DNA from: Bacteroidales bacterium
Lineage (GTDB): Bacteria > Bacteroidota > Bacteroidia > Bacteroidales > WCHB1-69
Direction of reading: 5' to 3'
Assembly (NCBI GenBank): GCA_017651425.1
Contig: JAGCCZ010000041.1
Location: forward strand, 44,767 to 108,766
Length of the DNA: 64,000 bases
Below, piece after piece: positions 1,440-33,696 of this stretch. The notes beneath the pieces are model-generated. The model did not search any database and was not told the origin of the DNA. It saw only the letters and a program-made list of their open reading frames with translations. How positions within the stretch are numbered: position 1 is the first letter of the stretch; every line of letters starts with the position of its first letter. The translations under genes were made by a program, and so were the position numbers.

Positions 1440-4400
1440 ATGAATCCGAAAAATTTACTCAAGAGAGCACTTCCTCTGATGCTATGTCTAATTGCCTTCA
1501 TTGGCATCTCAAAAGCACAAGTCACCTACACGTTCAGTCAATACCCACAGGGCACGCAGTATGCTCACGACGAGGTCCATGTGTTGGACAATGACATGAC
1601 GATATACACGTATGAGTGCCACTTCACGACCCAGCTTCGTGTCTATTCCAGCAGTTCGCACAATGGTTATTTTTACACTGCTGCACTGCCGTTATATATA
1701 GACTCCATCACTTTCAACATGGGCTACAATGTTGACAATGTGCTTATTTACGGCAGCACGGATGGCCAAACCTGGAACAGTGTGGGCAGCATAGCCGTCA
1801 CGTCGTCGTCATACCGCAACTACACCATCTCTTTCGGTAGCAACAACTACAATTTCTTCAAGTTCGACGTGGAAGGCACGCAGCAGATTCGTGTCGCAAG
1901 CATGACTCTGCACTACAAGTCCTCGGGCCCGTCGGGCAATGTCGCTCAACTGCCGACCTTCACGCCTTCTCAAGGTGTGCTAACCCAGCCCACACAAGTT
2001 TCCATTGCCTGCGGCACGCCGGGCGCTTCCATATACTACACCACCGACGGCACCACGCCAGACAACACTTCAACCCTTTATACTGCACCCATCACCATTT
2101 CACAGTCCACAACACTCAAAGCCATCGCGTACGCCACAGGATACAATCCCAGCTATGTAGCCACCGCGACCTACACCTTCCCGGCCACTGTGGCCAACAT
2201 CGCTGCTTTCAAGGCTCAGACGGACAACAACCCTCCCTACTATTTCAGTAATGATGTCACCTACGTCTTCAAGCAAGGTGCCTACACCTATGTGAAAGAC
2301 GCCACCGGAGGATTGCTCCTTTATGCCGGCCAAATCACGACATCCTATCAAGAGGGCGACCAAATCAGCGGTCTCATGGGCACACGCTCTGTCTATAACG
2401 GCCAAATCGAGCTGACCCCGACGGTGAACACCCCCGTGGCAACCTCCAATACGGGTGCGGTTGCGCCCGTTGTGGTGACGATGGCTGACCTCTTGGCCAA
2501 CTACAGCCAATATGACGCACAGCTCATCACCCTGCAAGGCGTGACATTGCCCAATGGATTTTCTGGCAGCACCACTGCCATTACACAAGGCGGCAACACC
2601 TGTGACATTTATAACCGTTTTGCTTTGGACACTATTTTGCCTGCCGGTACTGTGACCGACGTGACGGGCTTCGCTGCCATTTACAACAGCACCATCCAAA
2701 TTTATCCGCGCTACAACTCTGATTTGGCAACAGCCACGCCTCCCGCACCGCAACCTACCCTTGCCATCGTCTCTCCTGCCGACGGCAGCAACTATTCCAC
2801 ACTCGATACTATGCATGTGGTGCTGAACATCGGGAACTTCACGCTCGGCACCGACGGTTTGCTCAAGGTCGAGTCCAACATCCTGTCCGCCCTTAATATG
2901 CCGAGTCCTTTCTATTTCAATGCTCTCACATGGGCTGCTTTCCAGAACCAGGTGCTGAGTCCGCTGCCGGCGGGCTCGTTCAGCGCCACGGTCTCCTTGG
3001 TGGGCATGGACTCCCTGCCTCTGACACCTGCTGTCAGCGCCACCACGGACTTCACCGTCACGGCTCCTGTGCTGCCCACCCCGACCATCACCGTCACTGG
3101 TGACAATGCCGGCCCGGACACATACTATTTCACGGCAAACGTGACCTTGTCTGTGTCCGAACCCGGTGCTGAAATCCGTTACACCACGGACGGCACCACT
3201 CCGACAGCAACGTCCACGCTCTACACGGCGCCCTTCAATGTGACCACGACCTCTACCGTCAAGGCCATTGCCTTGAAGGCGAACTATGCCAACAGCGATG
3301 TGGCTACCCAGAGCATCACCATTGCCATCCCGGTGGTCGCCACCCCGACCTTGACGCCGGGCACGGGTATTTACGCCGACAGTGTTGTCGTGACGATGGC
3401 CTGCGCCACCACTGATGCGCAAATCCGCTACACTACGGATGGCACGGAACCGACGGCTGCTGCCACGCTTTATACGGCTCCAATCACGTTGACCGCCAAT
3501 ACGACGCTCAAAGCCAAAGCTTTCAAGGCAAACTGGACGACCAGCGAAATGATCACTGCCACCTACACCATTGCTCACGAGCCGGCATTGGCTGTCACAC
3601 CGGGTTCATTGAGCTTTAACAGCACAACATTGACGGGTGTGATTGATGTCACCTCCGCCTTCCTCACCAGTCCCGTAGCGGTGACGTGCAACAACACGCA
3701 TTTCACGCTCTCCACGGCCTCCATTCCGGCAAGCAGCACGTCCGCGCAGGTAACGGTGACTTTTGACGGCACCGAACCCGCCACGGGCACCGTCACCTTC
3801 ACCAGCGACACGCTTACCGCACAGGTCTCCTTGACTGCCACGGCCACATTGCCCACGCCGGTCATTACTCCCGCCACGGGCGCTTCTGACACGATGATTG
3901 CTGTTACGATGAGCTGTGCCAACAGCAACGCCGGTATCTATTACACTACAGACGGCACTGCACCCACAGCCGCTGCCACTTTGTACACGGCTCCTGTTGT
4001 GTTGAACACGCCAGGCTCCCACACCGTCAAGGCCATTGCCATCCTGACCGGATGGGACAACAGCGATGTGGCCACCGCCACCTACACCATCACCGTGCCC
4101 GAGCCGCCTGCACCTGTCTATAACGACACTGTCATTTATTATACCAGCTTCGACTCCACGCAACAGTTTGTCGGTGGCAACAACTTCCAGAACGACCAAG
4201 TTCACTTCACGGGTCCTGCCGGCCAGCAGTGGGGCACCTATCACGGCACGCCGAGCACGACTTCCGCCATCAGCGGCGACCAGTCGATGCAGATGCGTTA
4301 TTATGTCAGCGGTGACCATTTCGCACATATCGGTTACACGTTCACCAACTTCGACTTGAACGATGTCACGCGCGTCACCTTCTCCGCCAAGAGTACCAAC

Positions 4401-5966
4401 GGACTCAATATGACGGTCTCCTACTCTACCGACGGCGGCAACACCTACCAGGGCACGGAGCTCATCAACCTGACGCAGAATGCGCAGAACTACACATATG
4501 TGGTCAGCGACACGGGCGCGTATGCTTTTGTGCGTCTGCGTTTCGCCGTCGCCGCGCCCATCGTCACCCCTAACAGCACATCAAGGGTCATCATCGACAG
4601 TGTGGTGGTCTATGGTGTTCCCGGCATCGTTCACAACAACGTGGCCACTCCGGAAATCACCCCGGCCAGCGGATTTGTGTATGCCGCATCTCAGACGGTG
4701 ACCATCACTTGCGCCACGGCTGGTGCAAGCATCTACTACACCACGGACGGCAGCATTCCGACACAAAACTCCACGCTCTACACGGAACCTTTCACCATCG
4801 ATAGCAATGTCACTATCAAGGCCAAGGCCTTCAAGGATGGAGACATGCCCAGTCTGGTGGCCACCGCCACTTACGAGTTCCCTGTCACTGTGGCCAACAT
4901 TGCCGCCTTCAAGGCTGCCAACACCGCCACCAACAGCACCGTTTACAAGATTGCAGGTGACGTGACCTTTGTCTTCAAGAGCGGCAGCAACATCTATGTG
5001 CAGGATAATACCGCAGGACTGTTAGTGTACGACAATCAGGGCGTTATTACGGGCAGCTATGCAGAGGGCGACGTCATCAGCGGCGGCATCTTCGGCACCT
5101 ACACGCTTTACAACGGCTTGGTGGAAATGGTGCCCACTCACAACTGGGCCGCCTCTACGCAGAACACGGGCACTGTCTCCCCGGTGACCGCCAGCGTGGA
5201 AGACATCGCAGCCTTCTACTATCAATATGAATCCAAGTTGGTCACCCTCACGGGTGTCACCTTCACCGCCGGCGGCCAGTTTACCACCGCCAGCGCCACG
5301 AACCTTGAGATCGAGCAGAACGGCGAGACTATGCAGGTGCGCAACACCCACAAGACCCTTGACATGACCATTCCCGCAGGTAGTGTCGCCGATGTGACGG
5401 GCTTCGTGCTCCAATACAACGGCACCTACCAGATCGCCCCGCGCGACAACAACGACATTGTGCTGCAAGGCACGGAGGCAGTGGCCGACCCGGTCATTGA
5501 TATCCAGCCGCTCACCAACAACATGTCTGCCATCACCATCACGTGTGCCACAGATGGAGCAACCATTCACTACACTTTCGATGGCACCGACCCCGACGAG
5601 AACTCTCCTGTCTATACGGATGTCCTCTCCCAGGAGGGAATTTTCACCATCAAGGCCATCGCTATGAAGGACGGCATGAGCAACAGTAATGTGGTCAGCG
5701 CCACCAACAGCGGCATCTGCGACCGCGAACTGGCCGGCACGATTTCGGTCTATCCGAACCCCGCCACCGACAAGGTGACCCTCAACAGCGAACGCTACAC
5801 CATGGACAAGGTGGTCGTTTACGATATTTTCGGACAACAAGTCCGCACTTTCAATGTGAATGACTTGACTCAGGACATTGACCTGTCTCAATTGCGTCCG
5901 GGCACCTATTTCCTGTATGTATCGACAACCAACGGTATTGCAGTGCAGAAAGTGGTGAAAAAATAA
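1440..5966 (+). CDS. T9SS-secreted 1508-aa multidomain surface protein with chitobiase/beta-hexosaminidase C-terminal (Fn3-associated) repeats and OB-fold-like modules
   Basis: Signal peptide MNPKNLLKRALPLMLCLIAFIGISKAQ. About 8 copies of the motif G(A)SIYYTTDGT.P...STLYT.P....T.KA.A. Two ANIAAFKA...GQIEL/GLVEM...YQI.PR modules. C-terminal type-A sorting domain VYPNPATDKVTLN...GTYFLYVSTTNG..VQKVVKK. Confidence 0.85.
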   Translation: MNPKNLLKRALPLMLCLIAFIGISKAQVTYTFSQYPQGTQYAHDEVHVLDNDMTIYTYECHFTTQLRVYSSSSHNGYFYTAALPLYIDSITFNMGYNVDNVLIYGSTDGQTWNSVGSIAVTSSSYRNYTISFGSNNYNFFKFDVEGTQQIRVASMTLHYKSSGPSGNVAQLPTFTPSQGVLTQPTQVSIACGTPGASIYYTTDGTTPDNTSTLYTAPITISQSTTLKAIAYATGYNPSYVATATYTFPATVANIAAFKAQTDNNPPYYFSNDVTYVFKQGAYTYVKDATGGLLLYAGQITTSYQEGDQISGLMGTRSVYNGQIELTPTVNTPVATSNTGAVAPVVVTMADLLANYSQYDAQLITLQGVTLPNGFSGSTTAITQGGNTCDIYNRFALDTILPAGTVTDVTGFAAIYNSTIQIYPRYNSDLATATPPAPQPTLAIVSPADGSNYSTLDTMHVVLNIGNFTLGTDGLLKVESNILSALNMPSPFYFNALTWAAFQNQVLSPLPAGSFSATVSLVGMDSLPLTPAVSATTDFTVTAPVLPTPTITVTGDNAGPDTYYFTANVTLSVSEPGAEIRYTTDGTTPTATSTLYTAPFNVTTTSTVKAIALKANYANSDVATQSITIAIPVVATPTLTPGTGIYADSVVVTMACATTDAQIRYTTDGTEPTAAATLYTAPITLTANTTLKAKAFKANWTTSEMITATYTIAHEPALAVTPGSLSFNSTTLTGVIDVTSAFLTSPVAVTCNNTHFTLSTASIPASSTSAQVTVTFDGTEPATGTVTFTSDTLTAQVSLTATATLPTPVITPATGASDTMIAVTMSCANSNAGIYYTTDGTAPTAAATLYTAPVVLNTPGSHTVKAIAILTGWDNSDVATATYTITVPEPPAPVYNDTVIYYTSFDSTQQFVGGNNFQNDQVHFTGPAGQQWGTYHGTPSTTSAISGDQSMQMRYYVSGDHFAHIGYTFTNFDLNDVTRVTFSAKSTNGLNMTVSYSTDGGNTYQGTELINLTQNAQNYTYVVSDTGAYAFVRLRFAVAAPIVTPNSTSRVIIDSVVVYGVPGIVHNNVATPEITPASGFVYAASQTVTITCATAGASIYYTTDGSIPTQNSTLYTEPFTIDSNVTIKAKAFKDGDMPSLVATATYEFPVTVANIAAFKAANTATNSTVYKIAGDVTFVFKSGSNIYVQDNTAGLLVYDNQGVITGSYAEGDVISGGIFGTYTLYNGLVEMVPTHNWAASTQNTGTVSPVTASVEDIAAFYYQYESKLVTLTGVTFTAGGQFTTASATNLEIEQNGETMQVRNTHKTLDMTIPAGSVADVTGFVLQYNGTYQIAPRDNNDIVLQGTEAVADPVIDIQPLTNNMSAITITCATDGATIHYTFDGTDPDENSPVYTDVLSQEGIFTIKAIAMKDGMSNSNVVSATNSGICDRELAGTISVYPNPATDKVTLNSERYTMDKVVVYDIFGQQVRTFNVNDLTQDIDLSQLRPGTYFLYVSTTNGIAVQKVVKK

Positions 5967-6523: not shown

Positions 6524-6919
6524 ATGGAAAAGAAAACTTCAATGATTAGACTGAGAATGAGCTCTCAAGACGCTCATTATGGTGGTAATTTGGTGGATGG
6601 CGCACACATGCTCGCCTTGTTCGGTGATGTGGCCACAGAGCTGCTCATCATGCAGGATGGCGACGAGGGCCTGTTCTGCGCATACGACAATGTTGAATTC
6701 TTGGCCCCCGTTTATGCAGGGGACTATATCGAGGCTGTCGGTGAAATCACCCATGTGGGCAATACCTCCCGCAAAATGGTCTTCGAGGCCCGCAAGATTA
6801 TCGTTCCCCGCCCGGATATCAGCGCCTCCGCCGCCGACGTGCTGGAAGAGCCCATCGTGGTGTGCCGCGCTTCCGGCACCTGCGTGACTCCCAAAAAGTG
6901 CCAACGGAAAAACAATTAA
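6524..6919 (+). CDS. kal: 3-aminobutyryl-CoA ammonia-lyase (hot-dog fold, lysine fermentation)
   Basis: 131 aa. [35 protein letters not shown]...[13 protein letters not shown] is typical of Kal proteins, and the gene is adjacent to kce. Confidence 0.75.
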
Positions 6920-6957
6920 TTTATTAAGTCATTAAGATATTAAGTTATTAAATTATC
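6917..6957. repeat. imperfect 8-9 bp ATTAAG tandem repeat beginning at the kal stop codon
   Basis: taatttATTAAGtcATTAAGatATTAAGttATTAAAttatc, with TTAAG cores spaced 9, 8 and 9 bp apart. Confidence 0.7.
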
Positions 6958-7900: not shown

Positions 7901-7933
7901 AACCCCATAAGTTGGACAAAAACTTATGGGGTT
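7901..7933 (+). terminator. terminator hairpin after kce
   Basis: AACCCCATAAGTT-ggacaaa-AACTTATGGGGTT, a perfect 13-bp stem. Confidence 0.6.
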
Positions 7934-7945
7934 CATATTATACTA

Positions 7946-8224
7946 TTACGTGCTAAGGGACGAGTGAGCAGTGATCAGTGGATTGATGGAGGTTCCGCCA
8001 CACGATTGAGGCAGGTCGTGACCACGGGTGACAGAGTGTGTGGCAGAATGGCAAGCAAGAGGGTGCATTGTGGAGATTCCGCACGACCGACCAGCCCCGC
8101 CAGGGGCTAAAGCCCGGTAGGAAACGGCGGCGATGCGGGTTCCCCGAAGCCCCGTCAGGGGATTCCCAGGACGGTATAATCGGTAGCAGAGCATCGGTGG
8201 TGATTTTGACGTGGCGAATATCAT
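7946..8224 (-). repeat. terminal copy of the cassette-leader hairpin repeat (no Rhs core follows it)
   Basis: Same module order as the leaders at 11.4, 13.3 and 14.9 kb: cgccac..caaaa.caccaccgatg, then CCCC-N4-GGGG hairpins at 8150-8161 and 8093-8108, ending in ctgatcactgctcact. The ORFs called here (7946..8224 -, 8038..8226 +) are translations of the repeat. Confidence 0.75.
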
Positions 8225-8263: not shown

Positions 8264-8875
8264 TTATTCACAATCTTTATAAACTGCACTCGAGTTATAA
8301 TATTGAATTTCCATATATCGTAAGTGGTGTTTCTCATCAAAATACAGATGCATTATCGTATGGTCTTTTTCACCTGTAGAGAAAGATATCTCATAAAAAC
8401 ATTTATGTTTATTTATTCTATGCCTATCATTATATGGTGCAAGACAATATACTTGAGGAGAAGGCATTTCACAATCGAAAACTTCAAGAATATCACGCAG
8501 TAATATCTTATACGATAGCTCGACATTTTTATCTACCTCATATATCCTCAGTCGCTTATTCTTTTTGAAATCCAAATGTTGGAGGCGCACTTTGCCGAAT
8601 TCTTCGAAATAGGCAATACCCTTTCTTCCACTGTAAAAATAATTGACAGTATAACATTCTCGCATAGTACTAAAAGGGTTAGGATGAATATAAAGTTTCA
8701 TATCCTGAATACACTTCCAACTGTATTTTAGGGATAACAATTCGACAGTTTTTCCTTGTATTGGAATTTTTGATTGCAGATTGTCTATATTGATTGTACC
8801 GTTTGGTTTTTTTTGACAGAAACAGACTGCTGCGGTTAGTACTAAGTATATCAAAAATAATAATCTTATTCTCAT
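8264..8875 (-). CDS. putative periplasmic immunity protein for Rhs-CT toxin 1
   Basis: Signal peptide MRIRLLFLIYLVLTAAVCFCQ. The start overlaps the toxin stop by 4 nt. AT-rich, with no recognisable family. Confidence 0.6.
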   Translation of the reverse strand: MRIRLLFLIYLVLTAAVCFCQKKPNGTINIDNLQSKIPIQGKTVELLSLKYSWKCIQDMKLYIHPNPFSTMRECYTVNYFYSGRKGIAYFEEFGKVRLQHLDFKKNKRLRIYEVDKNVELSYKILLRDILEVFDCEMPSPQVYCLAPYNDRHRINKHKCFYEISFSTGEKDHTIMHLYFDEKHHLRYMEIQYYNSSAVYKDCE

Positions 8876-10062
8876 TTTCTCAAAGAATTATCGAAATCTC
8901 CTTGTTTACTTTCCGGGACAGAGAACAATATAACTACAAAAGGATATTGCGCATTGACGTTTTTTGCAGAATAGACTCTTGCTGGATATCTTGACATTGC
9001 ATTATTATAACTACCCCATTCCACAGATGATCTTACCCACAAACTGCCGTTTTTACCTTCAATTGTAGAGGAAGGTGCCAACCACATATCAACAACAATC
9101 TTATCACCGCCCTTAAGAGGAATGGAGACATTACTATATTGTGTTCCACCGTCTTTACTGTAAAAACCAATTATATAATCATTCAAATCCACGCCATATA
9201 TGCCATTGGGCAACGTGGTTCCTTTATTGGCTCCGTACATCAAGGCAAACATGACTTGTGAAGCTTTTTGAGAATCGTTCATTTTGTGCCAATTTCCTTT
9301 TAGCACACTTGAACCATTTGTGGCTTCTTTTACATGTGCCCCTTTGATTATTGCTCCTTCTTTTATTTGTCCAGTTGTGCTTAATTTAGCATTGTTGAAA
9401 ATCTTCGTGCTTATGAGTACTCCATTAGCATCTTTGTATTGTCCATTTGCGTCCCTGCATTCAAATTGTCTGTTGAAGGTGTCAAAACTGTCCCCTTTTT
9501 CCGCTGTGTATGTCACATTCCCGTCCTCATCCAACCCGGGAATCCACCGCCCATCCGGATCAGTAAGTTTCACTGGATTGTCCGCGCAATACACATAGGG
9601 ACTTGAAGAAGGATATTTCGCCGCCATCGGGTCGACGCTGAGCCAGATGCTCAAATCCGAGCTGTAATAGCGTGCGCCAAAGTAGGTTAGACCGGTTTCC
9701 GCATCGCGTTCTTTTGCGGAGAAGGTGTAACGCACTCCGTCGAAATGGCTGGAACGTTGGTTCACAAACTCCTCGCCCCAAGGCAGATAGTGGAGATGCT
9801 GCTTTACCGTGCCGTTGGTGGTGGTGATCCAACTGCTGCTGCCGAGGTGGTCGGGATGGTAGAAATAGAGCGTGGAAACTGCATCCTGCCGGTCGGTGAG
9901 CGTGTCCAAATAGGAGAAGCGGGAGCTTGCCGGAACGGTCAGGGTGGCGGGATGGTCCACCCCGTTTGTCACCGCCTGCAGCTTCACCTGCACGAGGGAG
10001 TCGCTCACCACGGGAGTGTGGACATATGCGTAAAGATGATATGAAAACGCGTTGTTGCTCAT
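8872..10062 (-). CDS. orphan Rhs fragment: distal RHS core (YFYHPDHLGSS...YTFSAKERDAETGLTYFGARYY...NPVKLTDPDG) fused to an unclassified C-terminal toxin domain
   Basis: RHS repeat-associated core motifs lie in aa 65-170, followed by about 225 aa of unrelated sequence that starts with a LysM-like stretch (VTYTAEKGDSFDTFNRQF). The N-terminal Rhs shell is absent. Confidence 0.8.
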   Translation of the reverse strand: MSNNAFSYHLYAYVHTPVVSDSLVQVKLQAVTNGVDHPATLTVPASSRFSYLDTLTDRQDAVSTLYFYHPDHLGSSSWITTTNGTVKQHLHYLPWGEEFVNQRSSHFDGVRYTFSAKERDAETGLTYFGARYYSSDLSIWLSVDPMAAKYPSSSPYVYCADNPVKLTDPDGRWIPGLDEDGNVTYTAEKGDSFDTFNRQFECRDANGQYKDANGVLISTKIFNNAKLSTTGQIKEGAIIKGAHVKEATNGSSVLKGNWHKMNDSQKASQVMFALMYGANKGTTLPNGIYGVDLNDYIIGFYSKDGGTQYSNVSIPLKGGDKIVVDMWLAPSSTIEGKNGSLWVRSSVEWGSYNNAMSRYPARVYSAKNVNAQYPFVVILFSVPESKQGDFDNSLRK

Positions 10063-10092
10063 TACGAGGCAAAGATAACAAATTAAGAACTT

Positions 10093-10506
10093 CTATTTAT
10101 GACCGAAACTGTAGTTAGAACCATCTAATGGGCCTTTTTTGTTCCTTAGTCTTCTGATTTTATGTGTAGAATAGTGATTAACATTTGTCCACCATTCAAC
10201 ATACAATGATTGTATTTGATAATAGTCATATAACGTTAAATTTGAACCGTTTTTACTGCTAAGTATGAGATTATATGTGAAGTGTGGATTTAGTAATCGC
10301 TCAATTGACAGTACTACTTGTGTCCCCAATAAAAATCGTTTAGATGTGGAAGAGTATGGCATTGTACATTCGTCTTGTTGTCCGCCCAATGATATATATT
10401 CGGTTATTCGAGGGATTAGAATTTCTATGCTGTCCTTAATTCTTGTCTGTGACATACCATTTAGATGTATAACACATAGAAAAAGAAGTATAATGACTCT
10501 ATTCAT
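10093..10506 (-). CDS. putative periplasmic immunity protein for Rhs-CT toxin 2
   Basis: Signal peptide MNRVIILLFLCVIHLNGMSQ and a 4-nt overlap with the upstream toxin stop. Confidence 0.6.
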   Translation of the reverse strand: MNRVIILLFLCVIHLNGMSQTRIKDSIEILIPRITEYISLGGQQDECTMPYSSTSKRFLLGTQVVLSIERLLNPHFTYNLILSSKNGSNLTLYDYYQIQSLYVEWWTNVNHYSTHKIRRLRNKKGPLDGSNYSFGHK

Positions 10507-11516
10507 GTTTTTGGAATTGCTTCGTTTTGATTATAATCTTTGTTCTTGTTAGCTGGAATTCTAAAGTATGCTCTACTAGTTTTATGAGACACCCCTTCTG
10601 AATCTTTATACGTATTATAATAATTTGGTGCATCTGGGTGATTAATAGAGATAGGGCCATCTCCACACTTTGCCTTTACTAATGTTGTATAGCCTAGGGG
10701 GTCCACTTCCTCAACAATAGCAGAATGAACAATATACTCGTACACATCATACATGCCATTTTGATTTTCATCATAGTAATAGATCACTCTATCACCTACC
10801 TGATTATTCTCGGTTGGCAACATTTGACGGGCATTTTGTTCAATAATGTCTTGTGTCGGATCCTCATTCCATCGAGGTAAAATAAAAGCATAGTTATTAC
10901 GAATATTTATTCCCCAAGGAACGCAGTCCCCAGACAGTATCAGCCCTAAATAATTTATCTGTTTGGAATTTTTACTGCCACATGCATTATTCCAAGCATA
11001 CGAATGGCAATTATAGCAAGAAATAAAATTATTTATGGAGTACCCTATTGTTCTTCCTTTTGAATCGTAAACATATTCATAGTATGTTGCTGTATTTGGT
11101 ATATATGTAACACCTCGGTCTTTGCATGGATTGAACGGTCTATCTTTTTTCCCGTCGGCATCAACTAAAATTATCGGATTATTACTGCAATAAACATATC
11201 CTGATTGGTGAGGATATTTGTAACTCATCGGGTCAACGCTGAGCCAGATGCTCAAATCGGAGGAATAATATCTTGAACCAAAGTAGCTTAAGCCGGTTTC
11301 TGTGTCGCGTTCTTTTGCGGAGAAGGTGTAAGACGAGTGAACAGTGATCAGTGAAGAGTGATCAGATGGGGATTGGGTAAGGAAATGCGCTGCGGTGGCT
11401 ACAACCGCCCATCCATCCCCGTTAGGGGATACATATCTGTAGCCGAGGGTGTTCCCGCGAGAGGCACAAATCCCCGTTAGGGGATTCATTTGACAGCATG
11501 TACGACGGCGGTTCAT
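10503..11516 (-). CDS. orphan Rhs-CT toxin 2: RHS core tail plus papain-fold (NlpC/P60/CHAP-like) cysteine peptidase/amidase domain
   Basis: YTFSAKERDTETGLSYFGSRYYSSDLSIWLSVDPM...NPIILVDADG is followed by a candidate catalytic Cys in YNCHSYAW (codon 11007-11009) and His in GDRVIYYYD...YIVHSAIV (codon 10725-10727). This is the NlpC/P60 order GD...H after C. Confidence 0.65.
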   Translation of the reverse strand: MNRRRTCCQMNPLTGICASRGNTLGYRYVSPNGDGWAVVATAAHFLTQSPSDHSSLITVHSSYTFSAKERDTETGLSYFGSRYYSSDLSIWLSVDPMSYKYPHQSGYVYCSNNPIILVDADGKKDRPFNPCKDRGVTYIPNTATYYEYVYDSKGRTIGYSINNFISCYNCHSYAWNNACGSKNSKQINYLGLILSGDCVPWGINIRNNYAFILPRWNEDPTQDIIEQNARQMLPTENNQVGDRVIYYYDENQNGMYDVYEYIVHSAIVEEVDPLGYTTLVKAKCGDGPISINHPDAPNYYNTYKDSEGVSHKTSRAYFRIPANKNKDYNQNEAIPKT

Positions 11517-11625
11517 CGGCGGTGGTTTTGGAGGTGGCGAAAATACGAAAAATTCCGAATATGACGGAGGCTTCCACCTCCTTGCCGTTGATGTAGATGT
11601 TTACCCCGCAGGCTGCTCTTATGAT
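11337..11625 (-). repeat. cassette-leader hairpin repeat, copy A
   Basis: AGTGATC-type heptamers (11337-11365), hairpins ATCCCC-gtta-GGGGAT (11415-11430) and AATCCCC-gtta-GGGGATT (11469-11486), then cgaaaatacgaaaaa and GGAGGC-ttcc-ACCTCC. It carries an extra T at 11553-11554 relative to copy C. Confidence 0.8.
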
Positions 11626-11721
11626 AGCATCAGCTTTTATCATTCAGCTTCCCGCGATGACGAGGAAATCTTAGAAACGAAAAAGGAAATGTTTGCATCA
11701 TCAAACAGGATCTATCAGTTA

Positions 11722-12369
11722 TTATTGTTGTACAGTTGTCTCATCCTTGAGATGTCTTTTGGCGTATTCTTTCTGATAGTGCTTCAGCACTCTTTTTGCA
11801 TCACGAGCGTTTGGGTAGTGATGGTTGCGAGGCTTCCATTTTCCGTCAACCAACATAAACCCTGCGTACACCACTTGCGGATCCAAACAGTCGTATATTC
11901 GGACAGCAGACAACTTGCCGTAGAAACCATAATCGGAGATGCACAGGAAATCTCTTTTTTTATAGTGAATTATCCAACTTTCAAGTTCCACAAATCCAAA
12001 CATGTCATAGTAAATGCATTGGGAATCTGTACACTCCCCAAAATAATAATGCTTTTCATTCTGCAATCTACCATTTGAATGAAAAATCAACGCTTTGCCG
12101 TGAAGCAGTCCGTTCAGATAATTGTACTGTTTGTATAACTGCCCATTGGGATAATACGTTTGCACTAACGAATCATAACCTAACGTATCATAAAGTATCT
12201 TGGTGTACTGTAGTAAGTCTGCTGTTATTTTATAATTGGTTTCAGAAAGAGTCATTTCAAACATTTGACTTTTCGACAAGGAATCCGGCGTTTGAGCCTC
12301 AGCATCGCTCATGGCGCAAAAAAAACAAAAAAGAAGAGGTGATAGGGATCTCATGCTTACTTTCTTCAT
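11722..12369 (-). CDS. YwqK-family (MORN-repeat variant) immunity/antitoxin protein with signal peptide
   Basis: MKKVSMRSLSPLLFCFFCAMSDAEAQ signal peptide. MORN-variant repeats TYYPNGQLYKQYNYLNGLLHGKALIFHSNGRLQNEKHYYFG. Lies directly downstream of toxin 3. Confidence 0.65.
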   Translation of the reverse strand: MKKVSMRSLSPLLFCFFCAMSDAEAQTPDSLSKSQMFEMTLSETNYKITADLLQYTKILYDTLGYDSLVQTYYPNGQLYKQYNYLNGLLHGKALIFHSNGRLQNEKHYYFGECTDSQCIYYDMFGFVELESWIIHYKKRDFLCISDYGFYGKLSAVRIYDCLDPQVVYAGFMLVDGKWKPRNHHYPNARDAKRVLKHYQKEYAKRHLKDETTVQQ

Positions 12370-12402
12370 AACAGTATTTAAAATGACGGTCAATGTTATT
12401 GA

Positions 12403-13464
12403 TTAATAGCTACGTTCCCAATCATGTGCTTCCTGACCAGAAGGATTCAATTCCACATTGTTTTCATCTTTCAAATGGCCAGTACGAGCAGACTGATTGC
12501 CATTTTTCATTAACCAAATAGCATATTCAACTGGGAAAGTTACTTCATAAAAAATATGTCCTCCTTCATGGGCAAAAGATTTTCCAACTTGATCAGAATA
12601 CCGTGGGTTGATTATCAGTTTCACGCCATTCATTGAGAATATTTCATTTTTATAATCAATCAATGGAAAAAAATGGATTCCACCTAATAACATACTTGGA
12701 TGATGACTAAAGAAATGTTGTATTTCAGATTGGCCTGTGTATATGCCGCTGTTAAGATAATAATTTACAAATACATACACGTCAACAATGCCACTTGGTG
12801 AATGAAGATGATTCAACTTGTTGTACATTTCAGGGCTATGATTTTTAAAATCTGTTATAATCTTTTGCACACAATCATACTTTTTTTTAATCAAATAGTA
12901 TTGGGTGTACTTTTCTTTATAGTCTTGTTTTGCTAAAAAATATAGTTTGTCGCGTTTGGACAAACTATTAAAGAATACTTTTGCTTGTTGCATTTTTTCT
13001 GTAGCAGAAATCAAGGCATTTGAATACCCGTTTATTATTGAATCCCCATTCGGATCCACCAGCTTCACTGGGTTGTCCGCGCAGTACACATACGGGCTCA
13101 ACGAAGGATATTTCGAAGCCATCGGGTCCACGCTCAGCCAAATAGAGAGTTCGGAGGAATAATAGCGTGCGCCAAAGTAAGATAGCCCGGTTTCGGAGTC
13201 CTTTTCTTTTGCGGAGAAGGTGTAAGAGGAGTGAACAGTGATCAGTGAAGAGTGATCAGTATGGGAGTGGGTGACGGAGTATGTCACAGGAAACCCATCC
13301 CCGTCAGGGGATGCATATCTGTAGCCCGGATCGGTTGCGCATGCGGGCCAAATCCCCGTGAGGGGATTCATTTGACAATATGGTCGGCGGCGGTTCATCG
13401 GCGGCGGTTTTGATGGGGCGAAAGTGCAAAAAAATAGTTGTTCCTGCTCTTTATTTATAATCAA
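12403..13464 (-). CDS. orphan Rhs-CT toxin 3: RHS core tail plus HExxH zinc-metallopeptidase-like domain
   Basis: YTFSAKEKDSETGLSYFGARYYSSELSIWLSVDPM...NPVKLVDPNG is followed by a unique domain with SFAHEGGHIFYEV (HEGGH encoded at 12556-12570). The N-terminal 80 aa are read through the repeat leader, so the true start is unknown. Confidence 0.7.
   Translation of the reverse strand: MIINKEQEQLFFCTFAPSKPPPMNRRRPYCQMNPLTGIWPACATDPGYRYASPDGDGFPVTYSVTHSHTDHSSLITVHSSYTFSAKEKDSETGLSYFGARYYSSELSIWLSVDPMASKYPSLSPYVYCADNPVKLVDPNGDSIINGYSNALISATEKMQQAKVFFNSLSKRDKLYFLAKQDYKEKYTQYYLIKKKYDCVQKIITDFKNHSPEMYNKLNHLHSPSGIVDVYVFVNYYLNSGIYTGQSEIQHFFSHHPSMLLGGIHFFPLIDYKNEIFSMNGVKLIINPRYSDQVGKSFAHEGGHIFYEVTFPVEYAIWLMKNGNQSARTGHLKDENNVELNPSGQEAHDWERSY
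13231..13430 (-). repeat. cassette-leader hairpin repeat, copy B
   Basis: Near-identical to copy C over gtgaacagtgatcagtgaagagtgatcagtatgggagtgggtgacggagtatgtcacaggaaacCCATCCCCgtcaGGGGATGcatatctgtagcc...AATCCCCgtgaGGGGATTcat. Confidence 0.8.
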
Positions 13465-13988
13465 GATCCCACATAAAATAAATCTTTAATGGAATCAGAA
13501 ACCACCACCCGAAATTTTGGTGTCCTTGATCCAATAAAAACTTTTTTCCCATTCGTGAAAAATTCAAAAGTTCGGTCCAAGTAATCTGTGCGCCATAGTA
13601 TGTCATTATCACCTACCGACTTTAGACGTAGATCGTACCATGCCCCAATTTGAAGAGGAGAAGAACAGTCAAGGGAGTCTTCGCAGAAAGTTACTATCGA
13701 GAACATAAAACGTTCCGTTCTGTCAGTTACATGTATCAAATTGTATTTTTTAGAATCTTCTATGAGATTTCCTGGATTTGTATCTATCGCAACTACTTTG
13801 TACATACAAAGAATGGAATCATAAATGGCCTCTTCAAAGACAATGGTGTCAATGTTTTCATGTAATATCCAATAGTATTTTTCCGTTTCTAAAATGCAGG
13901 TGTCCGCAGTTTGTGCAGAACATGATTTCGAATAAGGCATAAAGGATGTCAAAACGGTGAACAATATGATTCTAAACGTAAACTTCAT
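13461..13988 (-). CDS. putative periplasmic immunity protein for Rhs-CT toxin 4
   Basis: Signal peptide MKFTFRIILFTVLTSFMPYSKSCSAQ and a 4-nt overlap with the toxin 4 stop. Confidence 0.6.
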   Translation of the reverse strand: MKFTFRIILFTVLTSFMPYSKSCSAQTADTCILETEKYYWILHENIDTIVFEEAIYDSILCMYKVVAIDTNPGNLIEDSKKYNLIHVTDRTERFMFSIVTFCEDSLDCSSPLQIGAWYDLRLKSVGDNDILWRTDYLDRTFEFFTNGKKVFIGSRTPKFRVVVSDSIKDLFYVGS

Positions 13989-15070
13989 GGCCTAATCCTT
14001 TTTTCGATAAATAAATCATACATCAATGTCGAACAGTTGAATGTATTACAAAACATGTTTCTGATCTCACTTTTGTTATAAGGCTGAGATATTGCATTGT
14101 CATGTGAGATTCGATAAAAATCATTGTAATAATACGGATCTTGTCCCTTTATCCACTCTGCAGGTGAAGCATGAAATTGCCTCTCTATAGAAAGTAACCC
14201 TCCAAGATAAGATTCAGTTAATTCATGCGCAATCAGTTTGCCTCTTGCATTAGAATAATAATTCTGTATGACCTTTTTTTTGTTAATAAATTGAGAGGTA
14301 AACGCCATACTCTTATCATCAGAAAGCACATTCCCTCCAAAAGCTGCAGACATATTTATTTCAAAATTGCCCATAGATGTTTGAACATAATCAGTTTCTC
14401 CCACTAACATGTTAACAATGACAGTGTTTGAGTTAATTGCATCATAAATTAGCTTTTCGTCTTCGGACAAAGACGATATATCATCAACATTAGTGTGCAG
14501 CCTGCCGAATTTATCGCGTGTGATATTAAGCCCTTGATAAGAGTCTGACAGTTGTTTAGTAACCCATTCCGCCCCTTCGCCTGTGATAAATACATCATAT
14601 TCTTCCCCATTCGGATCCACCAACTTCACCGGGTTGTCCGCGCAATACACATACGGGCTTAGGGAGGGATATTTCGAAGCCATCGGGTCAACGCTGAGCC
14701 AGATAGACAAATCGCTGCTGTAATAGCGTGCACCAAAGTAAGATAGGCCCGTTTCGGAGTCCTTTTCTTTCGCGGAGAAGGTGTAAGAGGAGTGAAGAGT
14801 GATCAGTGAAGAGTGATCAGTATGGGAGTGGGTGACGGAGTATGTCACAGGAAACCCATCCCCGTCAGGGGATGCATATCTGTAGCCACGGGCGTTTCCG
14901 TATGCGGGCCAAATCCCCGTGAGGGGATTCATAAGGTGATATGGTCGGTGACGGTTCATCGGCGGTGGTTTTGGAGGTGGCGAAAATACGAAAAATCCGA
15001 ATATGACGGAGGCCTCCGCCTCCTTGCCGTTGATGTAGATGGTTACCCTGCGGGTGCTGCTCTTTGCCAT
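13985..15070 (-). CDS. orphan Rhs-CT toxin 4: RHS core tail plus unclassified domain with a possible HExxE/zincin-like motif
   Basis: YTFSAKEKDSETGLSYFGARYYSSDLSIWLSVDPM...NPVKLVDPNG is followed by a unique 205-aa domain containing LIAHELTESYLGG (14213-14227). The ORF is open from an ATG at 15070 through the whole leader repeat. Confidence 0.65.
   Translation of the reverse strand: MAKSSTRRVTIYINGKEAEASVIFGFFVFSPPPKPPPMNRHRPYHLMNPLTGIWPAYGNARGYRYASPDGDGFPVTYSVTHSHTDHSSLITLHSSYTFSAKEKDSETGLSYFGARYYSSDLSIWLSVDPMASKYPSLSPYVYCADNPVKLVDPNGEEYDVFITGEGAEWVTKQLSDSYQGLNITRDKFGRLHTNVDDISSLSEDEKLIYDAINSNTVIVNMLVGETDYVQTSMGNFEINMSAAFGGNVLSDDKSMAFTSQFINKKKVIQNYYSNARGKLIAHELTESYLGGLLSIERQFHASPAEWIKGQDPYYYNDFYRISHDNAISQPYNKSEIRNMFCNTFNCSTLMYDLFIEKRIRP
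14791..15060 (-). repeat. cassette-leader hairpin repeat, copy C (most complete)
   Basis: Heptamers agtgaagagtgatcagtgaagagtgatcag, hairpins CATCCCC-gtca-GGGGATG and AATCCCC-gtga-GGGGATT, cgaaaatacgaaaaa, GGAGGC-ctcc-GCCTCC and ACCC-tgc-GGGT. Confidence 0.8.
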
Positions 15071-15263
15071 AGACCTGTAGTTTGTGGCAAAAATGGCCTA
15101 AACGTCCGTCACGGATAGGTATAGGTCAAGCCACCCAGCCTGTCCCGACAATTCCAAATCGAGCGTTTTTAATTCATACGGCTTTTGTGAAAAGACCCGA
15201 TTTTTCGATTTTCAAGAGGGAATAAAACAGTTCTCGGATAGCCTCCCCTCCACATATCCAATC

Positions 15264-15770
15264 CTATAAAACCATATATGAAGTCAAGTTGATTTCAGAA
15301 ATTACATTTTTTGGATGATTTTTTTTTACTGTTCTCCTTTTAATAATTGAGTCTGCTCGTATGCAATATGATATAATTTTGCGTAAATAAATTTGCTGTT
15401 GGATTGTTATTTCCATCTTGAAAATTTGTCGAATAATGAATGAGCCTCCACCATAAGAGATTATTAAATCAATCCCATGACGTGTTTTTCTAATACTGTC
15501 AAAAGAAAAATTTTTAACTTCTTCATCTGGAATAGGCAAATGTATTGTTACATGGTTTGTATCAAATATTAAAATGATTTTCCAAGTAGAATCTATTTGT
15601 CTTCCATTTTCAGCCAAATCAATCGTCTGAATAATTTTACAGCTAATGCCATTATTGTAATTTACAATAAAATTTGACAATGTATCCTGACGATTGTAGT
15701 GGAATGATGATTGTCCACGGCTCAACAGCATACAAGAGCCTATACACACTAATAGCAAAGTTTGTTTCAT
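15264..15770 (-). CDS. orphan immunity-like secreted protein (no intact cognate toxin)
   Basis: Signal peptide MKQTLLLVCIGSCMLLSRGQ. AT-rich, and preceded only by a 35-codon ORF coupled through TGATG. Confidence 0.5.
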   Translation of the reverse strand: MKQTLLLVCIGSCMLLSRGQSSFHYNRQDTLSNFIVNYNNGISCKIIQTIDLAENGRQIDSTWKIILIFDTNHVTIHLPIPDEEVKNFSFDSIRKTRHGIDLIISYGGGSFIIRQIFKMEITIQQQIYLRKIISYCIRADSIIKRRTVKKNHPKNVISEINLTSYMVL

Positions 15771-15877
15771 CAGTCAGTTGAAATTTTCCAAAAAATCGTT
15801 CTACCAACATTTCCGACGGCCTCAATTCTTCTGTTTACATTTACTTCTGTTTTATAATAAAATCCTTTCTCGTTCAT
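15770..15877 (-). pseudogene. possible 3' remnant of a deleted toxin gene (35 codons), translationally coupled to the downstream immunity-like gene
   Basis: My translation is MNEKGFYYKTEVNVNRRIEAVGNVGRTIFWKISTD. Its stop TGA (15772-15770) shares one base with the ATG at 15770. Confidence 0.3.
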
Positions 15878-15906
15878 GTTTTTTTTATTCTAAACATCAC
15901 ACGAGA

Positions 15907-16266
15907 CTATTCTTTGTAATCTTGAAATTCCCAATGTCCGTAATAACTAAGTTTCCGACATATGTCATCCCAATTATCTCCTTCTACACAAAAACAGGAT
16001 ATCAGTTTTTTACATAATAATGAATAATTGTAATGTGTCATAATAAGATGATGCAATCCAATTAATATATTACATTTATTTTTGTCCATCATTGATTGTA
16101 TCCAATTCGGACTACAAACACACAATTGAAAACTTTCTCCACTATCAGTTCCTTGGATTCCAACGATTATAGTAATCCAAAAACCAAAACAAGTTGGATT
16201 TTCGGGGCGATAATTTTGAATATCCAATACATCAGCACTGCAAATATCTTTGATTTCTGATTTCAT
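15907..16266 (-). CDS. cytoplasmic immunity protein, Imm8-like (orphan)
   Basis: 119 aa with no signal peptide. The pattern ...NYRPENPTCFGFWITIIVGIQGTDSGESFQLCVCSPNWI...GLHHLIM..YNY...WDDICRKLSYYGHWEFQDY matches my memory of the Imm8 family, including the C-terminal WEF.DY. Confidence 0.5.
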   Translation of the reverse strand: MKSEIKDICSADVLDIQNYRPENPTCFGFWITIIVGIQGTDSGESFQLCVCSPNWIQSMMDKNKCNILIGLHHLIMTHYNYSLLCKKLISCFCVEGDNWDDICRKLSYYGHWEFQDYKE

Positions 16267-16268
16267 AA

Positions 16269-16346
16269 CTACATATTTACGTCTAAGTGACCGTTATTTA
16301 TCCATTCCCCACTGTTTGTGTTTCTTGATTCAAAGTTGGCCTGGTA
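16269..16346 (-). pseudogene. toxin 3' remnant abutting the inverted leader repeat
   Basis: The last roughly 25 codons of ORF 16269..16532 (...QANFESRNTNSGEWINNGHLDVNM) are AT-rich, are not part of the repeat, and end 2 nt before the Imm8-like start. Confidence 0.3.
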
Positions 16347-24473: not shown

Positions 24474-24580
24474 TTAAGACTTAAGACTTGAGACTTTAGA
24501 CTTGAGACTTAATTTCTTAATTTCTTAATTTCTTAGTTTCTTAGTTTCTTAATATCTTAATATTTTAATATCTTAATTAT
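24474..24580. repeat. tandem heptamers (TTAAGAC x5) followed by tandem octamers (TTAATTTC x9)
   Basis: ttaagac ttaagac ttgagac tttagac ttgagac | ttaatttc x3, ttagtttc x2, ttaatatc, ttaatatt, ttaatatc, ttaattat. The last unit contains the DUF4249 stop codon. Confidence 0.9.
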
Positions 24581-25546: not shown

Positions 25547-25610
25547 TTAATTTCTTAATTTCTTAGTTTCTTAATTTCTTAATAGTTTAATAGTTTAATA
25601 ACTTAATAAT
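25547..25610. repeat. tandem octamers (TTAATTTC family x8) filling the TBDR-DUF4249 spacer
   Basis: ttaatttc ttaatttc ttagtttc ttaatttc ttaatagt ttaatagt ttaataac ttaataat. Confidence 0.9.
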
Positions 25611-31074: not shown

Positions 31075-31127
31075 GAAACTAAGAAATTAATCGTCTTATC
31101 GCAAACCGCAAATCGAAAATCGAAAAA
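31061..31127. repeat. tandem octamers (AATTAAGA x4) then heptamers (CGCAAAC/CGAAAAT x4) overlapping the symporter stop
   Basis: aattaaga aattaaga aactaaga aattaatc ... cgcaaac cgcaaat cgaaaat cgaaaaa. This is the reverse-complement orientation of the TTAATTTC family. Confidence 0.85.
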
Positions 31128-33682: not shown

Positions 33683-33696
33683 ATATTCTAAATTTT

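What the first reader, a model, noticed from the sequence alone, without database searches (positions are those of the whole stretch)
11337..15060. Modular GC-rich hairpin repeat forms the 5' leader of the cassettes and stays in an open reading frame
Cassettes 2, 3 and 4 are each preceded by the same 200-290 bp element (11337-11625, 13231-13430, 14791-15060). The element is built from AGTGATC-type heptamers, two CCCC-N4-GGGG hairpins (CATCCCC-gtca-GGGGATG and AATCCCC-gtga-GGGGATT), a cgaaaatacgaaaaa tract and, in two copies, GGAGGC-ctcc-GCCTCC. It joins the Rhs core at exactly the same point in all three (…HSSLIT[VL]HSS|YTFSAKE). The frame through it is open (MNR.RP...MNPLTGI....YRY.SP.GDG...), and in copy C it is open from an ATG with a promoter-like cATTTTTG box just upstream. 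Copy A carries a 1-nt indel (extra T at 11553-11554) that breaks the upstream frame. The same hairpin units also occur in plainly non-coding DNA elsewhere in the window. This argues that the element is a REP-like DNA/RNA structure rather than a protein domain. It could be the homology substrate for cassette exchange, a transcription/translation gate on silent toxins, or both.
Basis: seen in the sequence. Interest (0 to 1): 0.7.

Follow-up and report, generated by a model that had tools for sequence, protein, structure and literature searches.

The report
Translated repeat bounding Rhs toxin cassettes
The GC-rich hairpin repeat in front of each toxin cassette is real; it marks the exact point where Rhs toxin tips get swapped, and it supplies an in-frame start codon, so it appears to be translated rather than purely non-coding.

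Summary
Copies A, B and C sit where stated and abut the Rhs core at the same nucleotide. There are two further copies: D (7946-8224, diverged, ends the array) and E (16340-16760, inverted).

In 57 related loci from uncultured rumen Bacteroidales, 38 of 52 assessable element copies abut the same Rhs-core position. The frame in phase with the toxin carries 0 stops in 905 tail codons, against 30 and 29 in the other two frames. Tail lengths are multiples of 3 across about 8 unrelated tail types. Substitutions show no codon-position bias. The frame is therefore kept but the peptide sequence is not. This fits a translated leader that supplies a start codon, built from REP-like hairpins and heptamer repeats.

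The element's 3' edge is a precise recombination point. Identical core-plus-tip cassettes occur behind unrelated left partners, with the break at the junction (interval 14 nt or less in one case). In relatives, a tyrosine recombinase lies 284-301 bp from the first junction and next to a ~3000-aa Rhs gene. This suggests shufflon- or integron-like tip switching. The window has no recombinase and no full-length rhs. The mechanism is inferred from related loci, not shown.

The parts
14786..15064 (-). Element copy C, the leader of cassette 4. T-rich box 14981-14995. ATG(MNR) 14957-14959. ATG(MNPLTGI) 14930-14932. Hairpin 1 at 14912-14929. CTACAGA box 14879-14885. Hairpin 2 at 14857-14874. Heptamers 14791-14821. 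The upstream 5' module with the GGAGGCCTCC palindrome is in frame from ATG 15070.
   Evidence: folding z-score -3.4 as RNA and -3.1 as DNA
13225..13433 (-). Element copy B, the leader of cassette 3. It lacks the 5' module. ATG(MNR) 13396-13398. Hairpins at 13351-13368 and 13296-13313. Heptamers 13230-13260.
11331..11620 (-). Element copy A, the leader of cassette 2. ATG(MNR) 11514-11516. Hairpins at 11469-11486 and 11414-11431. Heptamers 11336-11365. A 1-nt insertion at 11553-11554 puts the 5' module out of frame.
7946..8224 (-). Element copy D. It is the diverged terminal copy after the last cassette. Its second hairpin carries a compensatory T-A to G-C change. It is not joined to Rhs and is followed by a terminator-like hairpin at 7905-7935.
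16340..16760 (+). Element copy E, inverted relative to the array. It has the full core (16351-16487) and a 94-bp hairpin-plus-heptamer unit repeated 2.3 times (16459-16676). Three consecutive CTGATCA units close all three frames. It abuts the 3' end of the thioredoxin-like gene. In a relative (L058), the orthologous copy is the direct terminal copy of an oppositely oriented array.
14606..14785 (-). Rhs core fragment of cassette 4 (YTFSAKE...VDPNG). Its first 14 nt (TACACCTTCTCCGC) are the inferred recombination core site. The toxin ORF ends at 13985. The immunity ORF 13461-13988 overlaps it by ATGA.
13045..13224 (-). Rhs core fragment of cassette 3. Toxin ORF runs to 12403. Immunity-like ORF is 11722-12393.
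11151..11330 (-). Rhs core fragment of cassette 2. Toxin ORF runs to 10503. Immunity ORF 10093-10506 overlaps it by ATGA.
8264..10062 (-). Cassette 1. It has a longer Rhs fragment (121 codons upstream of the same Y codon at 9729, with no element), then the toxin (to 8872) and immunity ORF 8264-8875.
15264..16266 (-). Two toxin-less ORFs at the upstream end of the array: Imm8 family (15907-16266) and an unassigned 168-aa ORF (15264-15770).

Best explanation
The element is the conserved inter-cassette module of an array of Rhs C-terminal toxin/immunity cassettes, in an uncultured rumen Bacteroidales lineage. It appears to have two roles.

(1) Boundary. Its 3' edge, where the heptamer tract ends, is the left side of a precise recombination junction. 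The conserved right side is the first ~14 nt of the retained Rhs core fragment (YACACCTTCTCCGC). Cassettes consisting of core fragment, toxin, immunity gene and element are moved between positions by breakage and joining exactly there. The positions are the full-length rhs gene, a recombinase-proximal slot, and element-led orphan slots. In related genomes the most likely agent is a dedicated tyrosine recombinase encoded beside the array. The process resembles a shufflon or an integron.

(2) Leader. The element provides an in-frame ATG (MNR.. and/or MNPLTGI..) and possibly a promoter, so that each stored toxin ORF is translated. The peptide sequence itself is unconstrained. The likely benefit is expression of the translationally coupled immunity gene of every stored cassette.

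The hairpins and heptamers are drawn from a REP-like repeat family of the host genome. Their own role (recombinase architecture, insulation or termination, translation control) is not resolved.

Shown: the repeat, the fixed junction, the conserved frame, the precise exchange breakpoints, and recombinase synteny in relatives.

Inferred: that the recombinase catalyses the exchange, that the leader is actually translated, and the immunity-coupling rationale. The window itself has no recombinase and no full-length rhs, so its array would depend on factors in trans or be a relic.
For: Fixed junction. 68 unique junctions from the window and related loci sit at the same nucleotide before [Y/H/F]TFSAKE. 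The left partners are unrelated: at least 8 heptamer-tail types, a 19-codon recombinase-proximal leader, or continuous Rhs sequence.

Frame.
- 31 of 34 element-to-Rhs joins are in frame. One of these 31 (L057) is the compensated 155-nt tail listed below; two tails (L039, L015) stay out of frame.
- In-frame tail lengths are 72, 81, 84, 114, 150 and 162 nt.
- There are 0 in-frame stops in 905 codons, against 30 and 29 in the other frames.
- Non-joined copies have 16, 21 and 14 stops across the three frames.
- One tail that lost a heptamer (155 nt) is compensated by +1 nt in the core.
- Leaders with a different hairpin type (L067) are also open for 76-86 codons.
- The recombinase-proximal leader always has an ATG exactly 19 codons before the junction.

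No amino-acid constraint. Variability at codon positions 1, 2 and 3 is 0.24, 0.16 and 0.24. AlphaFold2 predicts coil.

Precise exchange.
- The Rhs N-terminal part L037:1-2128 equals L019:3834-5961 (100%). In L037 it is joined to tip Y. In L019 it is joined to tip X.
- Tip X is 99.95% identical over 2002 nt to L017:1540-3540. There it sits behind the recombinase-proximal leader, on the same contig as L037.
- The crossover interval is 14 nt or less.
- Two more pairs break exactly at the junction.
- An empty site (L030) compared with occupied sites (L035, L007) differs by one cassette plus one element copy.

Recombinase. A 374-aa protein with PF00589 and PF02899 is present in 11 of the pattern-fetched loci. 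In the eight loci measured it is divergent and 284-301 bp from the first junction. It lies next to LytTR, DUF8202 and a ~3000-aa Rhs gene in L063-L067.

Nucleotide-level constraint. Four-fold degenerate sites in core codons 2 and 4 have entropy 0.71 and 0.63, against about 1.4-1.9 elsewhere.

Coupling. Three of four toxin/immunity pairs in the window overlap by ATGA.
Against: - The window has no tyrosine recombinase (tblastn; family-profile hmmsearch at E up to 10) and no full-length rhs. Copy D is decayed.
- Translation is not observed directly. The protein database holds only 19 small ORFs that match the leader.
- Hairpin stems are almost invariant, so they give little covariation.
- One cassette pair breaks at the end of the core. 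The L030/L035 crossover falls in a 36-nt identical stretch. Homologous recombination therefore also acts, or could explain some events.
- Three of 34 tails deviate from a multiple of 3; one of them (L057) is restored in frame by the +1 insertion, so two joins stay out of frame.
- The reciprocal product of the proposed inversion (recombinase-proximal leader joined to tip Y) was not recovered.
- All comparative data are metagenome assemblies.
Confidence: 0.6

Rival explanations
1. Purely non-coding REP/BIME-like repeat. On this view the open frame is a by-product of GC-rich sequence, and the orphan toxins are silent until they recombine into a main rhs gene.
For: - Hairpin units occur outside the array.
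- Copy E has stops in all frames.
- There is no codon-position bias.
- The element is modular, with a 94-bp unit that is not a multiple of 3.
- Both strands fold well.
Against: The frame is kept across about 8 unrelated tail types: 0 stops against 30 and 29. All in-frame tail lengths are multiples of 3. One frameshift is compensated. Non-joined copies serve as a control and show no frame preference. Other leader types also carry in-frame ATGs.
Confidence: 0.1
2. The leader is a genuine N-terminal protein domain of stand-alone small toxins, for example a targeting or secretion signal.
For: A conserved open frame and conserved motifs MNPLTGI and SPDGDG.
Against: - The conserved residues are exactly the hairpin stems.
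- Codon positions 1 and 3 vary equally.
- Tails are unrelated in sequence and length.
- Other leader families replace it.
- AlphaFold2 gives pLDDT 32-49 and coil, though on a shallow alignment.
- Pfam and NCBIfam find no domain.
Confidence: 0.07
3. The element is only a duplicated boundary. Arrays grow and shrink by ordinary homologous recombination between repeated leaders and Rhs cores. The neighbouring integrase in relatives merely belongs to a mobile island.
For: - The classical Rhs C-terminal displacement model (own knowledge).
- The L053/L035 pair breaks inside or after the core.
- The L030/L035 crossover lies in the longest identical stretch.
- There is no recombinase in the window.
Against: - Three exchanges break exactly at the junction, with no left-side homology, and one has an interval of 14 nt or less.
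- The same nucleotide is used with unrelated left partners.
- The spacing between recombinase and first junction is constant at 284-301 bp, next to a conserved 19-codon leader.
- A recombinase only 43% identical keeps the same synteny.
Confidence: 0.2
4. The heptamer tract is a slipped-strand phase-variation switch that turns individual orphan toxins ON or OFF by frameshifting. This could be an additional role.
For: - The 7-nt units lie between the start codon and the toxin.
- Copy number differs among related copies (L042/L051 at 162 nt, L057 at 155 nt, L015 at 103 nt).
- Three of 34 tails deviate from a multiple of 3, and protein P0011 has one extra heptamer.
Against: The repeats are imperfect and short (3-5 units). 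Most copies are ON. Similar 7-8-nt tandem repeats lie in ordinary intergenic DNA of this genome, so they may be a general mutational feature.
Confidence: 0.1

Closest known systems
Shufflons: tyrosine-recombinase inversion systems that swap gene 3' ends (R64 Rci/sfx for PilV; hsdS inversion systems)
   Same: In relatives, a tyrosine recombinase is encoded beside the locus. Recombination points lie inside a coding sequence. An inverted silent cassette faces the expressed gene. The same N-terminal part is found joined to alternative C-terminal tips, with exact breakpoints. The sites have a conserved right side and a variable left side. The asymmetry of sfx sites is from my own knowledge.
   Different: Here each cassette is a toxin plus immunity gene. 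Cassettes also stand in direct tandem arrays separated by a 200-290-bp leader. Each silent cassette has its own in-frame start codon. Inversion itself, and its reciprocal product, were not observed. The window lacks the recombinase and the expressed gene.
rAID-1, recombinase-associated acquired interbacterial defence arrays of Bacteroidales (Ross et al., bioRxiv 10.1101/471110; PMC12247911)
   Same: Both occur in Bacteroidales. Both are AT-rich arrays of short co-oriented genes with conserved repetitive intergenic sequences and an associated XerD-like tyrosine recombinase. Orphan immunity genes are present (Imm8 at 15907-16266).
   Different: rAID is defined by a recombinase placed 5' of and co-directional with the array, and by immunity-only genes. 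Here the recombinase (in relatives) is divergent. The cassettes carry complete toxin domains with an Rhs core fragment. The array is linked to a full-length rhs gene. Identity to BF9343_RS08045 could not be tested.
Integron gene cassettes (IntI, attI, attC)
   Same: The recombinase is divergent from the array. A special first site lies next to the recombinase. A structured repeat bounds each cassette. Cassettes all begin with the same short sequence. An empty site and an occupied site differ by one cassette plus one repeat.
   Different: The recombinase is not an integron integrase: TIGR02249 scores 33.7 bits against a cutoff of 265. The repeat is 5' of the coding part and is translated. It has no R/L-box attC architecture. 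Cassettes hold two genes.
Classical Rhs/CDI orphan toxin-immunity modules (C-terminal displacement by homologous recombination)
   Same: Each cassette is a core fragment, a polymorphic toxin and an immunity gene, arranged in tandem.
   Different: The extent of core retained is constant to the nucleotide. An in-frame ATG is conserved. Breakpoints lack left-side homology. A recombinase is associated.
REP/BIME extragenic palindromes
   Same: Short GC-rich palindromes with a conserved flanking box (CTACMGA), combined in a modular way, partly in tandem, and also found between ordinary genes.
   Different: Most copies here are fused in frame to a gene. The CTAC box is 7 nt upstream on the element strand rather than a 5' GTAG. 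No RAYT transposase was seen.

Membership tests
REP/BIME elements | Many dispersed extragenic copies of a short imperfect palindrome | tested here: inconclusive
   The window has 9 CTACMGA-N7-CCCC-N4-GGGG units. Seven are inside the array and two are elsewhere. Only 64 kb of the genome is available.
REP/BIME elements | Conserved GTAG tetranucleotide at the 5' foot of the palindrome, plus a cognate RAYT (Y1 transposase) | tested here: not met
   The box is CTAC, 7 nt upstream on the element strand. No RAYT was seen in the window or loci; the whole genome is not available.
Integron (attC / IntI) | Integron-type integrase | tested here: not met
   TIGR02249 scores 33.7 bits (cutoff 265) and NF011946 scores 16.9 bits (cutoff 435) for the recombinase of related loci. 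The window has none.
Integron (attC / IntI) | Recombinase divergent from the cassette array, with a dedicated first site | tested here: met
   In the eight recombinase-bearing related loci measured, spacing is 284-301 bp and a conserved 19-codon leader is present. Not met in the window itself.
Integron (attC / IntI) | attC with R''-L''/L'-R' boxes at the 3' end of single-ORF promoterless cassettes | tested here: not met
   The element has two separate CCCC-N4-GGGG hairpins plus heptamers and is translated into the next ORF. Cassettes hold two genes.
rAID-1 | 5' XerD-like recombinase at least 44% identical to BF9343_RS08045 | not testable with these tools
   The reference sequence is not retrievable here. 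The window has no recombinase. Homologues of the relatives' recombinase at about 45% identity are prophage integrases.
rAID-1 | Two or more co-directional downstream genes with GC of 41% or less | tested here: inconclusive
   GC is low (35-43% across 8-16 kb, against about 55% in the host). In relatives the main array is divergent from the recombinase. L030 and L053 also have a co-directional array.
rAID-1 | Conserved repetitive intergenic motifs | tested here: met
   The element lies between cassettes.
rAID-1 | Array content is orphan immunity genes | tested here: not met
   Cassettes carry an Rhs core fragment plus full toxin ORFs of 337-396 aa, each followed by an immunity gene. Only 15264-16266 is immunity-only.
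Shufflon-type C-terminal switching | Adjacent site-specific recombinase and inverted sites inside the coding sequence | tested here: met
   In L017, L063, L064, L065 and L067, an inverted cassette junction and the main-rhs junction flank the recombinase. Not met in the window.
Shufflon-type C-terminal switching | Alternative arrangements of the same locus with exact breakpoints | tested here: inconclusive
   The same Rhs N-terminal part is joined to tip X or to tip Y, and tip X is also found at the recombinase-proximal slot. The break interval is 14 nt or less. The reciprocal product and within-population heterogeneity were not seen.
Classical Rhs orphan modules | Core fragment, toxin and immunity gene downstream of a main rhs | tested here: inconclusive
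   Cassette structure is met. No main rhs lies within the 64-kb window. One is present in L067.
Classical Rhs orphan modules | Orphans lack initiation signals, and their core homology has variable extent | tested here: not met
   In-frame ATGs are conserved. The junction nucleotide is identical in 68 unique junctions.

The most novel reading that the evidence does not exclude
Giant Rhs toxins of rumen Bacteroidales change their toxic tip by conservative site-specific recombination at a fixed ~14-nt site inside the Rhs core. The reaction is driven by a dedicated tyrosine recombinase, using arrays of stored toxin/immunity cassettes on both sides of an invertible segment. Every stored cassette is kept translatable by a REP-derived leader, so that the cell stays immune to all tips its siblings may display. 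This would be a hybrid of shufflon and integron for polymorphic toxins. It could also be the biogenesis mechanism behind rAID-like arrays.
Probability: 0.4. Interest if true: 0.85.

Novelty: new variant of a known kind. Interest (0 to 1): 0.72.

Why it matters
Rhs and CDI toxin diversification is generally attributed to homologous recombination, with silent orphan cassettes. Here the orphan boundary is fixed to the nucleotide, and exchange breakpoints have no left-side homology. A tyrosine recombinase is syntenic in relatives, and the stored cassettes keep an in-frame start.

If confirmed, three things follow:
- It would be a programmed mechanism for switching and capturing toxin tips.
- It would make directly testable how recombinase-associated immunity arrays (rAID) are built. 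PMC12247911 calls this an area of active research.
- It would be an example of intergenic repeat DNA recruited as a translated leader under selection for frame only.

Tried and rejected
- Known structured RNA. Rfam gave no hit at gathering thresholds over the whole window. At E up to 1 over 14700-16800 it gave only a chance mir-46 match.
- 3' half of a group I or group II intron, or a trans-splicing leader. I considered this because of the exact junction. I dropped it because the hairpin unit also occurs in ordinary intergenic DNA, there is no Rfam match, and DNA-level exchange explains the junction.
- Folded protein domain. Pfam and NCBIfam find nothing in the leader. AlphaFold2 gives low confidence.
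- Promoter. The sigma-70 scan is not informative for Bacteroidetes. The conserved TTTTTCGTATTTTCG resembles the Bacteroidetes -7 box TAnnTTTG only imperfectly (own knowledge), so the promoter role stays unverified.
- Covariation in the hairpins. Stems are nearly invariant, partly because my search pattern required them. Only D and L058 show single compensatory changes.
- rAID-1 membership. The reference recombinase could not be obtained. More distant homologues (42-48% identity) turned out to be prophage integrases.
- Terminal inverted repeats of a transposon (D against E). This is unlikely because L058 shows the E-like copy as a direct terminal copy of an array.
- Literature. Searches for recombinase-driven or inversion-driven Rhs switching found nothing.

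Full report
**The observation.** The cassettes lie on the minus strand. Copies A (11331-11620), B (13225-13433) and C (14786-15064) align with each other. Each contains, in order:
- a T-rich box;
- an ATG (MNR..);
- a second ATG directly before hairpin 1 (AATCCCC-N4-GGGGATT);
- a CTACAGA box;
- hairpin 2 ([CT]ATCCCC-N4-GGGGATG);
- a variable spacer;
- CACTGAT-type heptamers.

The four Rhs core fragments become homologous exactly at the TAC codon of YTFSAKE. TIGR03696 matches cassettes 2-4 only from profile position 12-13. The 1-nt insertion in copy A is real.

Two more copies exist. D (7946-8224) is diverged and follows the last cassette. E (16340-16760) is inverted, 92.6% identical to C, and carries a 94-bp unit repeated 2.3 times. 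The host DNA is about 55% GC, while the cassette island (8-16 kb) is 35-43% GC, so the 'GC-rich' element has host-like composition.

**Where else it occurs.** A leader-peptide query found only 19 small hypothetical ORFs from Bacteroidales MAGs and metagenomes. Several are fused to the Rhs core at the same point. A two-hairpin DNA pattern retrieved 13 loci from species-representative genomes and 44 from metagenomes. Nearly all are uncultured rumen Bacteroidales. Of 52 assessable unique full-length copies:
- 38 abut the canonical Rhs core fragment;
- 2 abut other Rhs positions;
- 4 are terminal copies of arrays.

The element is therefore not scattered at random. Rfam has no match.

**Coding or not.** The distance from hairpin 2 to the junction is 72, 81, 84, 114, 150 or 162 nt across about 8 unrelated tail types. 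The span from hairpin 1 to hairpin 2 is 72 or 69 nt. In 28 unique Rhs-joined tails (905 codons), the frame in phase with the toxin has 0 stops, while the other frames have 30 and 29. Copies not joined to Rhs have 16, 21 and 14 stops. One tail that lost a heptamer (155 nt) is compensated by an extra C at the start of the core. Two tails are out of frame.

Other leader families behave the same way:
- The recombinase-proximal leader always has an ATG 19 codons before the junction.
- The L067 leaders use a different hairpin (CGCAC-N9-GTGCG) but have the same layout of GCTACC box plus heptamers. They are open for 76-86 codons.

Substitutions show no codon-position bias (0.24, 0.16 and 0.24 at positions 1, 2 and 3). 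The invariant residues are simply the hairpin stems. AlphaFold2 gives coil at pLDDT below 50. My conclusion is that the frame is selected and the peptide is not. This fits a translated leader that supplies a start codon. Three of the four toxin/immunity pairs in the window overlap by ATGA. From this I infer that translating the stored toxin ORF serves expression of the coupled immunity gene.

**The element as a cassette boundary.** L030 carries a solo element at a site where L035 and L007 carry element-cassette-element. The solo copy matches the left copy up to the heptamers and the right copy from there on. L058 is orthologous to the window's right flank (91% identity across the thioredoxin-like gene). 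It has the array in the opposite orientation, with the E-like copy as its direct terminal copy.

All 68 unique junctions use the same nucleotide, whatever lies on the left.

Cassettes with 100% identical core and tip occur behind unrelated left partners, with the break exactly at the junction:
- L004 against L018;
- L030 against L035;
- most tellingly, L037, L019 and L017.

In that last set, the Rhs N-terminal part L037:1-2128 is 100% identical to L019:3834-5961. L037 continues into tip Y and L019 into tip X. Tip X is 99.95% identical over 2002 nt to L017:1540-3540. L017 lies on the same contig as L037, and there tip X sits behind the recombinase-proximal leader. The crossover interval is 14 nt or less, within CACACCTTCTCCGC. 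Four-fold degenerate sites in core codons 2 and 4 are unusually conserved. One pair breaks at the end of the core instead, so homologous recombination also acts.

**Recombinase and main gene.** A 374-aa tyrosine recombinase (PF00589 plus PF02899, XerC/D-like, below family cutoffs) is present in 11 of the pattern-fetched loci. In the eight loci measured it is divergent and 284-301 bp from the first junction. Longer loci show this order:
- one or more inverted cassettes;
- the recombinase;
- a LytTR regulator;
- an ORF of about 160 aa;
- DUF8202 with a T9SS C-terminal domain;
- a Rhs protein of about 3000 aa (SpvB / TcdB_mid / RHS);
- an immunity gene;
- a direct orphan array with leaders.

This geometry would let inversion between the main-gene site and the inverted cassette site swap tips. 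Direct sites would allow excision and insertion.

The window has no such recombinase and no full-length rhs. Its array would depend on a factor in trans or be a relic.

**Comparison with known systems.** The closest described system is rAID-1: a XerD-like recombinase, AT-rich arrays and repetitive intergenic motifs 'reminiscent of integrons', with an unknown biogenesis mechanism. That system is defined by a co-directional recombinase and immunity-only genes. Shufflons and integrons are the closest mechanistic analogues. The integron-integrase models are not met. I found no paper describing recombinase-driven Rhs tip switching.

**Verdict.** I class this as a new variant of a known kind. The recombinase role and the translation of the leader are inferences. 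They need read-level, biochemical and Ribo-seq tests.

Noticed in passing
window 6915-6956, 24474-24578, 25547-25625, 31061-31090, 33696-33746, 45118-45151: Short intergenic tandem repeats of 7-8 nt (ATTAAGTT, TTAAGAC, CTTAATTT, AATTAAGA, AACTCTC/T). They sit directly between ordinary genes, several immediately upstream of start codons. They have the same kind of unit as the element's heptamer tails but different sequences.
   Followed up: partly
window 38077-38190 (-) and 45020-45151 (+): Small REP-like modules outside the array. Each is 'CTACCGAGCT..GCCCC-N4-GGGGC..TCAAGGAAA' (twice at 38.1 kb) followed by heptamers. The first lies between a terminator-like hairpin and the start of an aminotransferase class I/II (Kbl-like) gene, 36860-38050.
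   Followed up: partly
window 15264-16266 (-): An Imm8-family immunity gene (15907-16266) and a 168-aa ORF with no toxin gene in front of them. They lie at the upstream end of the array, next to the inverted copy E.
   Followed up: no
window 15000-15070 and 11560-11643 (-): An extra 5' module in copies A and C (peptide ..RVTIYINGKE[AV]EASVIFG, with a GGAGGCCTCC palindrome followed by a T-rich run). It recurs in other genomes (P0002-P0005, P0019, L001, L004), in varying frames relative to the leader. It is possibly a terminator for the preceding immunity gene. Its origin is unknown.
   Followed up: partly
L066 (GCA_018396375.1 contig VKOM0100001565.1): A recombinase only 43% identical keeps the same synteny (cassettes, recombinase, LytTR, DUF8202, Rhs of 2970 aa). 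Its neighbouring cassettes match the core query only from residue 19-20. A different junction position may therefore be used in that lineage.
   Followed up: no
L061, L062, L059, L060: Homologues of the array recombinase at 42-48% identity are prophage-type integrases. They lie next to DNA methylase genes and, in L061 and L062, a reverse transcriptase (RVT_1) beside a Fib_succ_major protein (possibly a diversity-generating retroelement).
   Followed up: no
L057 versus L042/L051/L052: A leader tail that lost exactly one heptamer (155 nt against 162 nt) carries an extra C at the first core codon (CACACCC). This restores the frame into a full-length toxin ORF of 368 codons.
   Followed up: yes
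window 1440-5966 (+) and 38291-44494 (-): Two large neighbouring genes. One is a 1508-aa protein with six CHB_HEX_C_1/Fn3_assoc repeats, DUF5689 and a T9SS sorting domain. The other is a 2067-aa alpha-2-macroglobulin-like protein. Neither is related to the array.
   Followed up: no
window 8872-15070 (-), the four toxin domains: None of the four C-terminal toxin domains or their immunity partners matches Pfam or NCBIfam. The one exception is a weak MORN_2 hit in 11722-12393.
   Followed up: no
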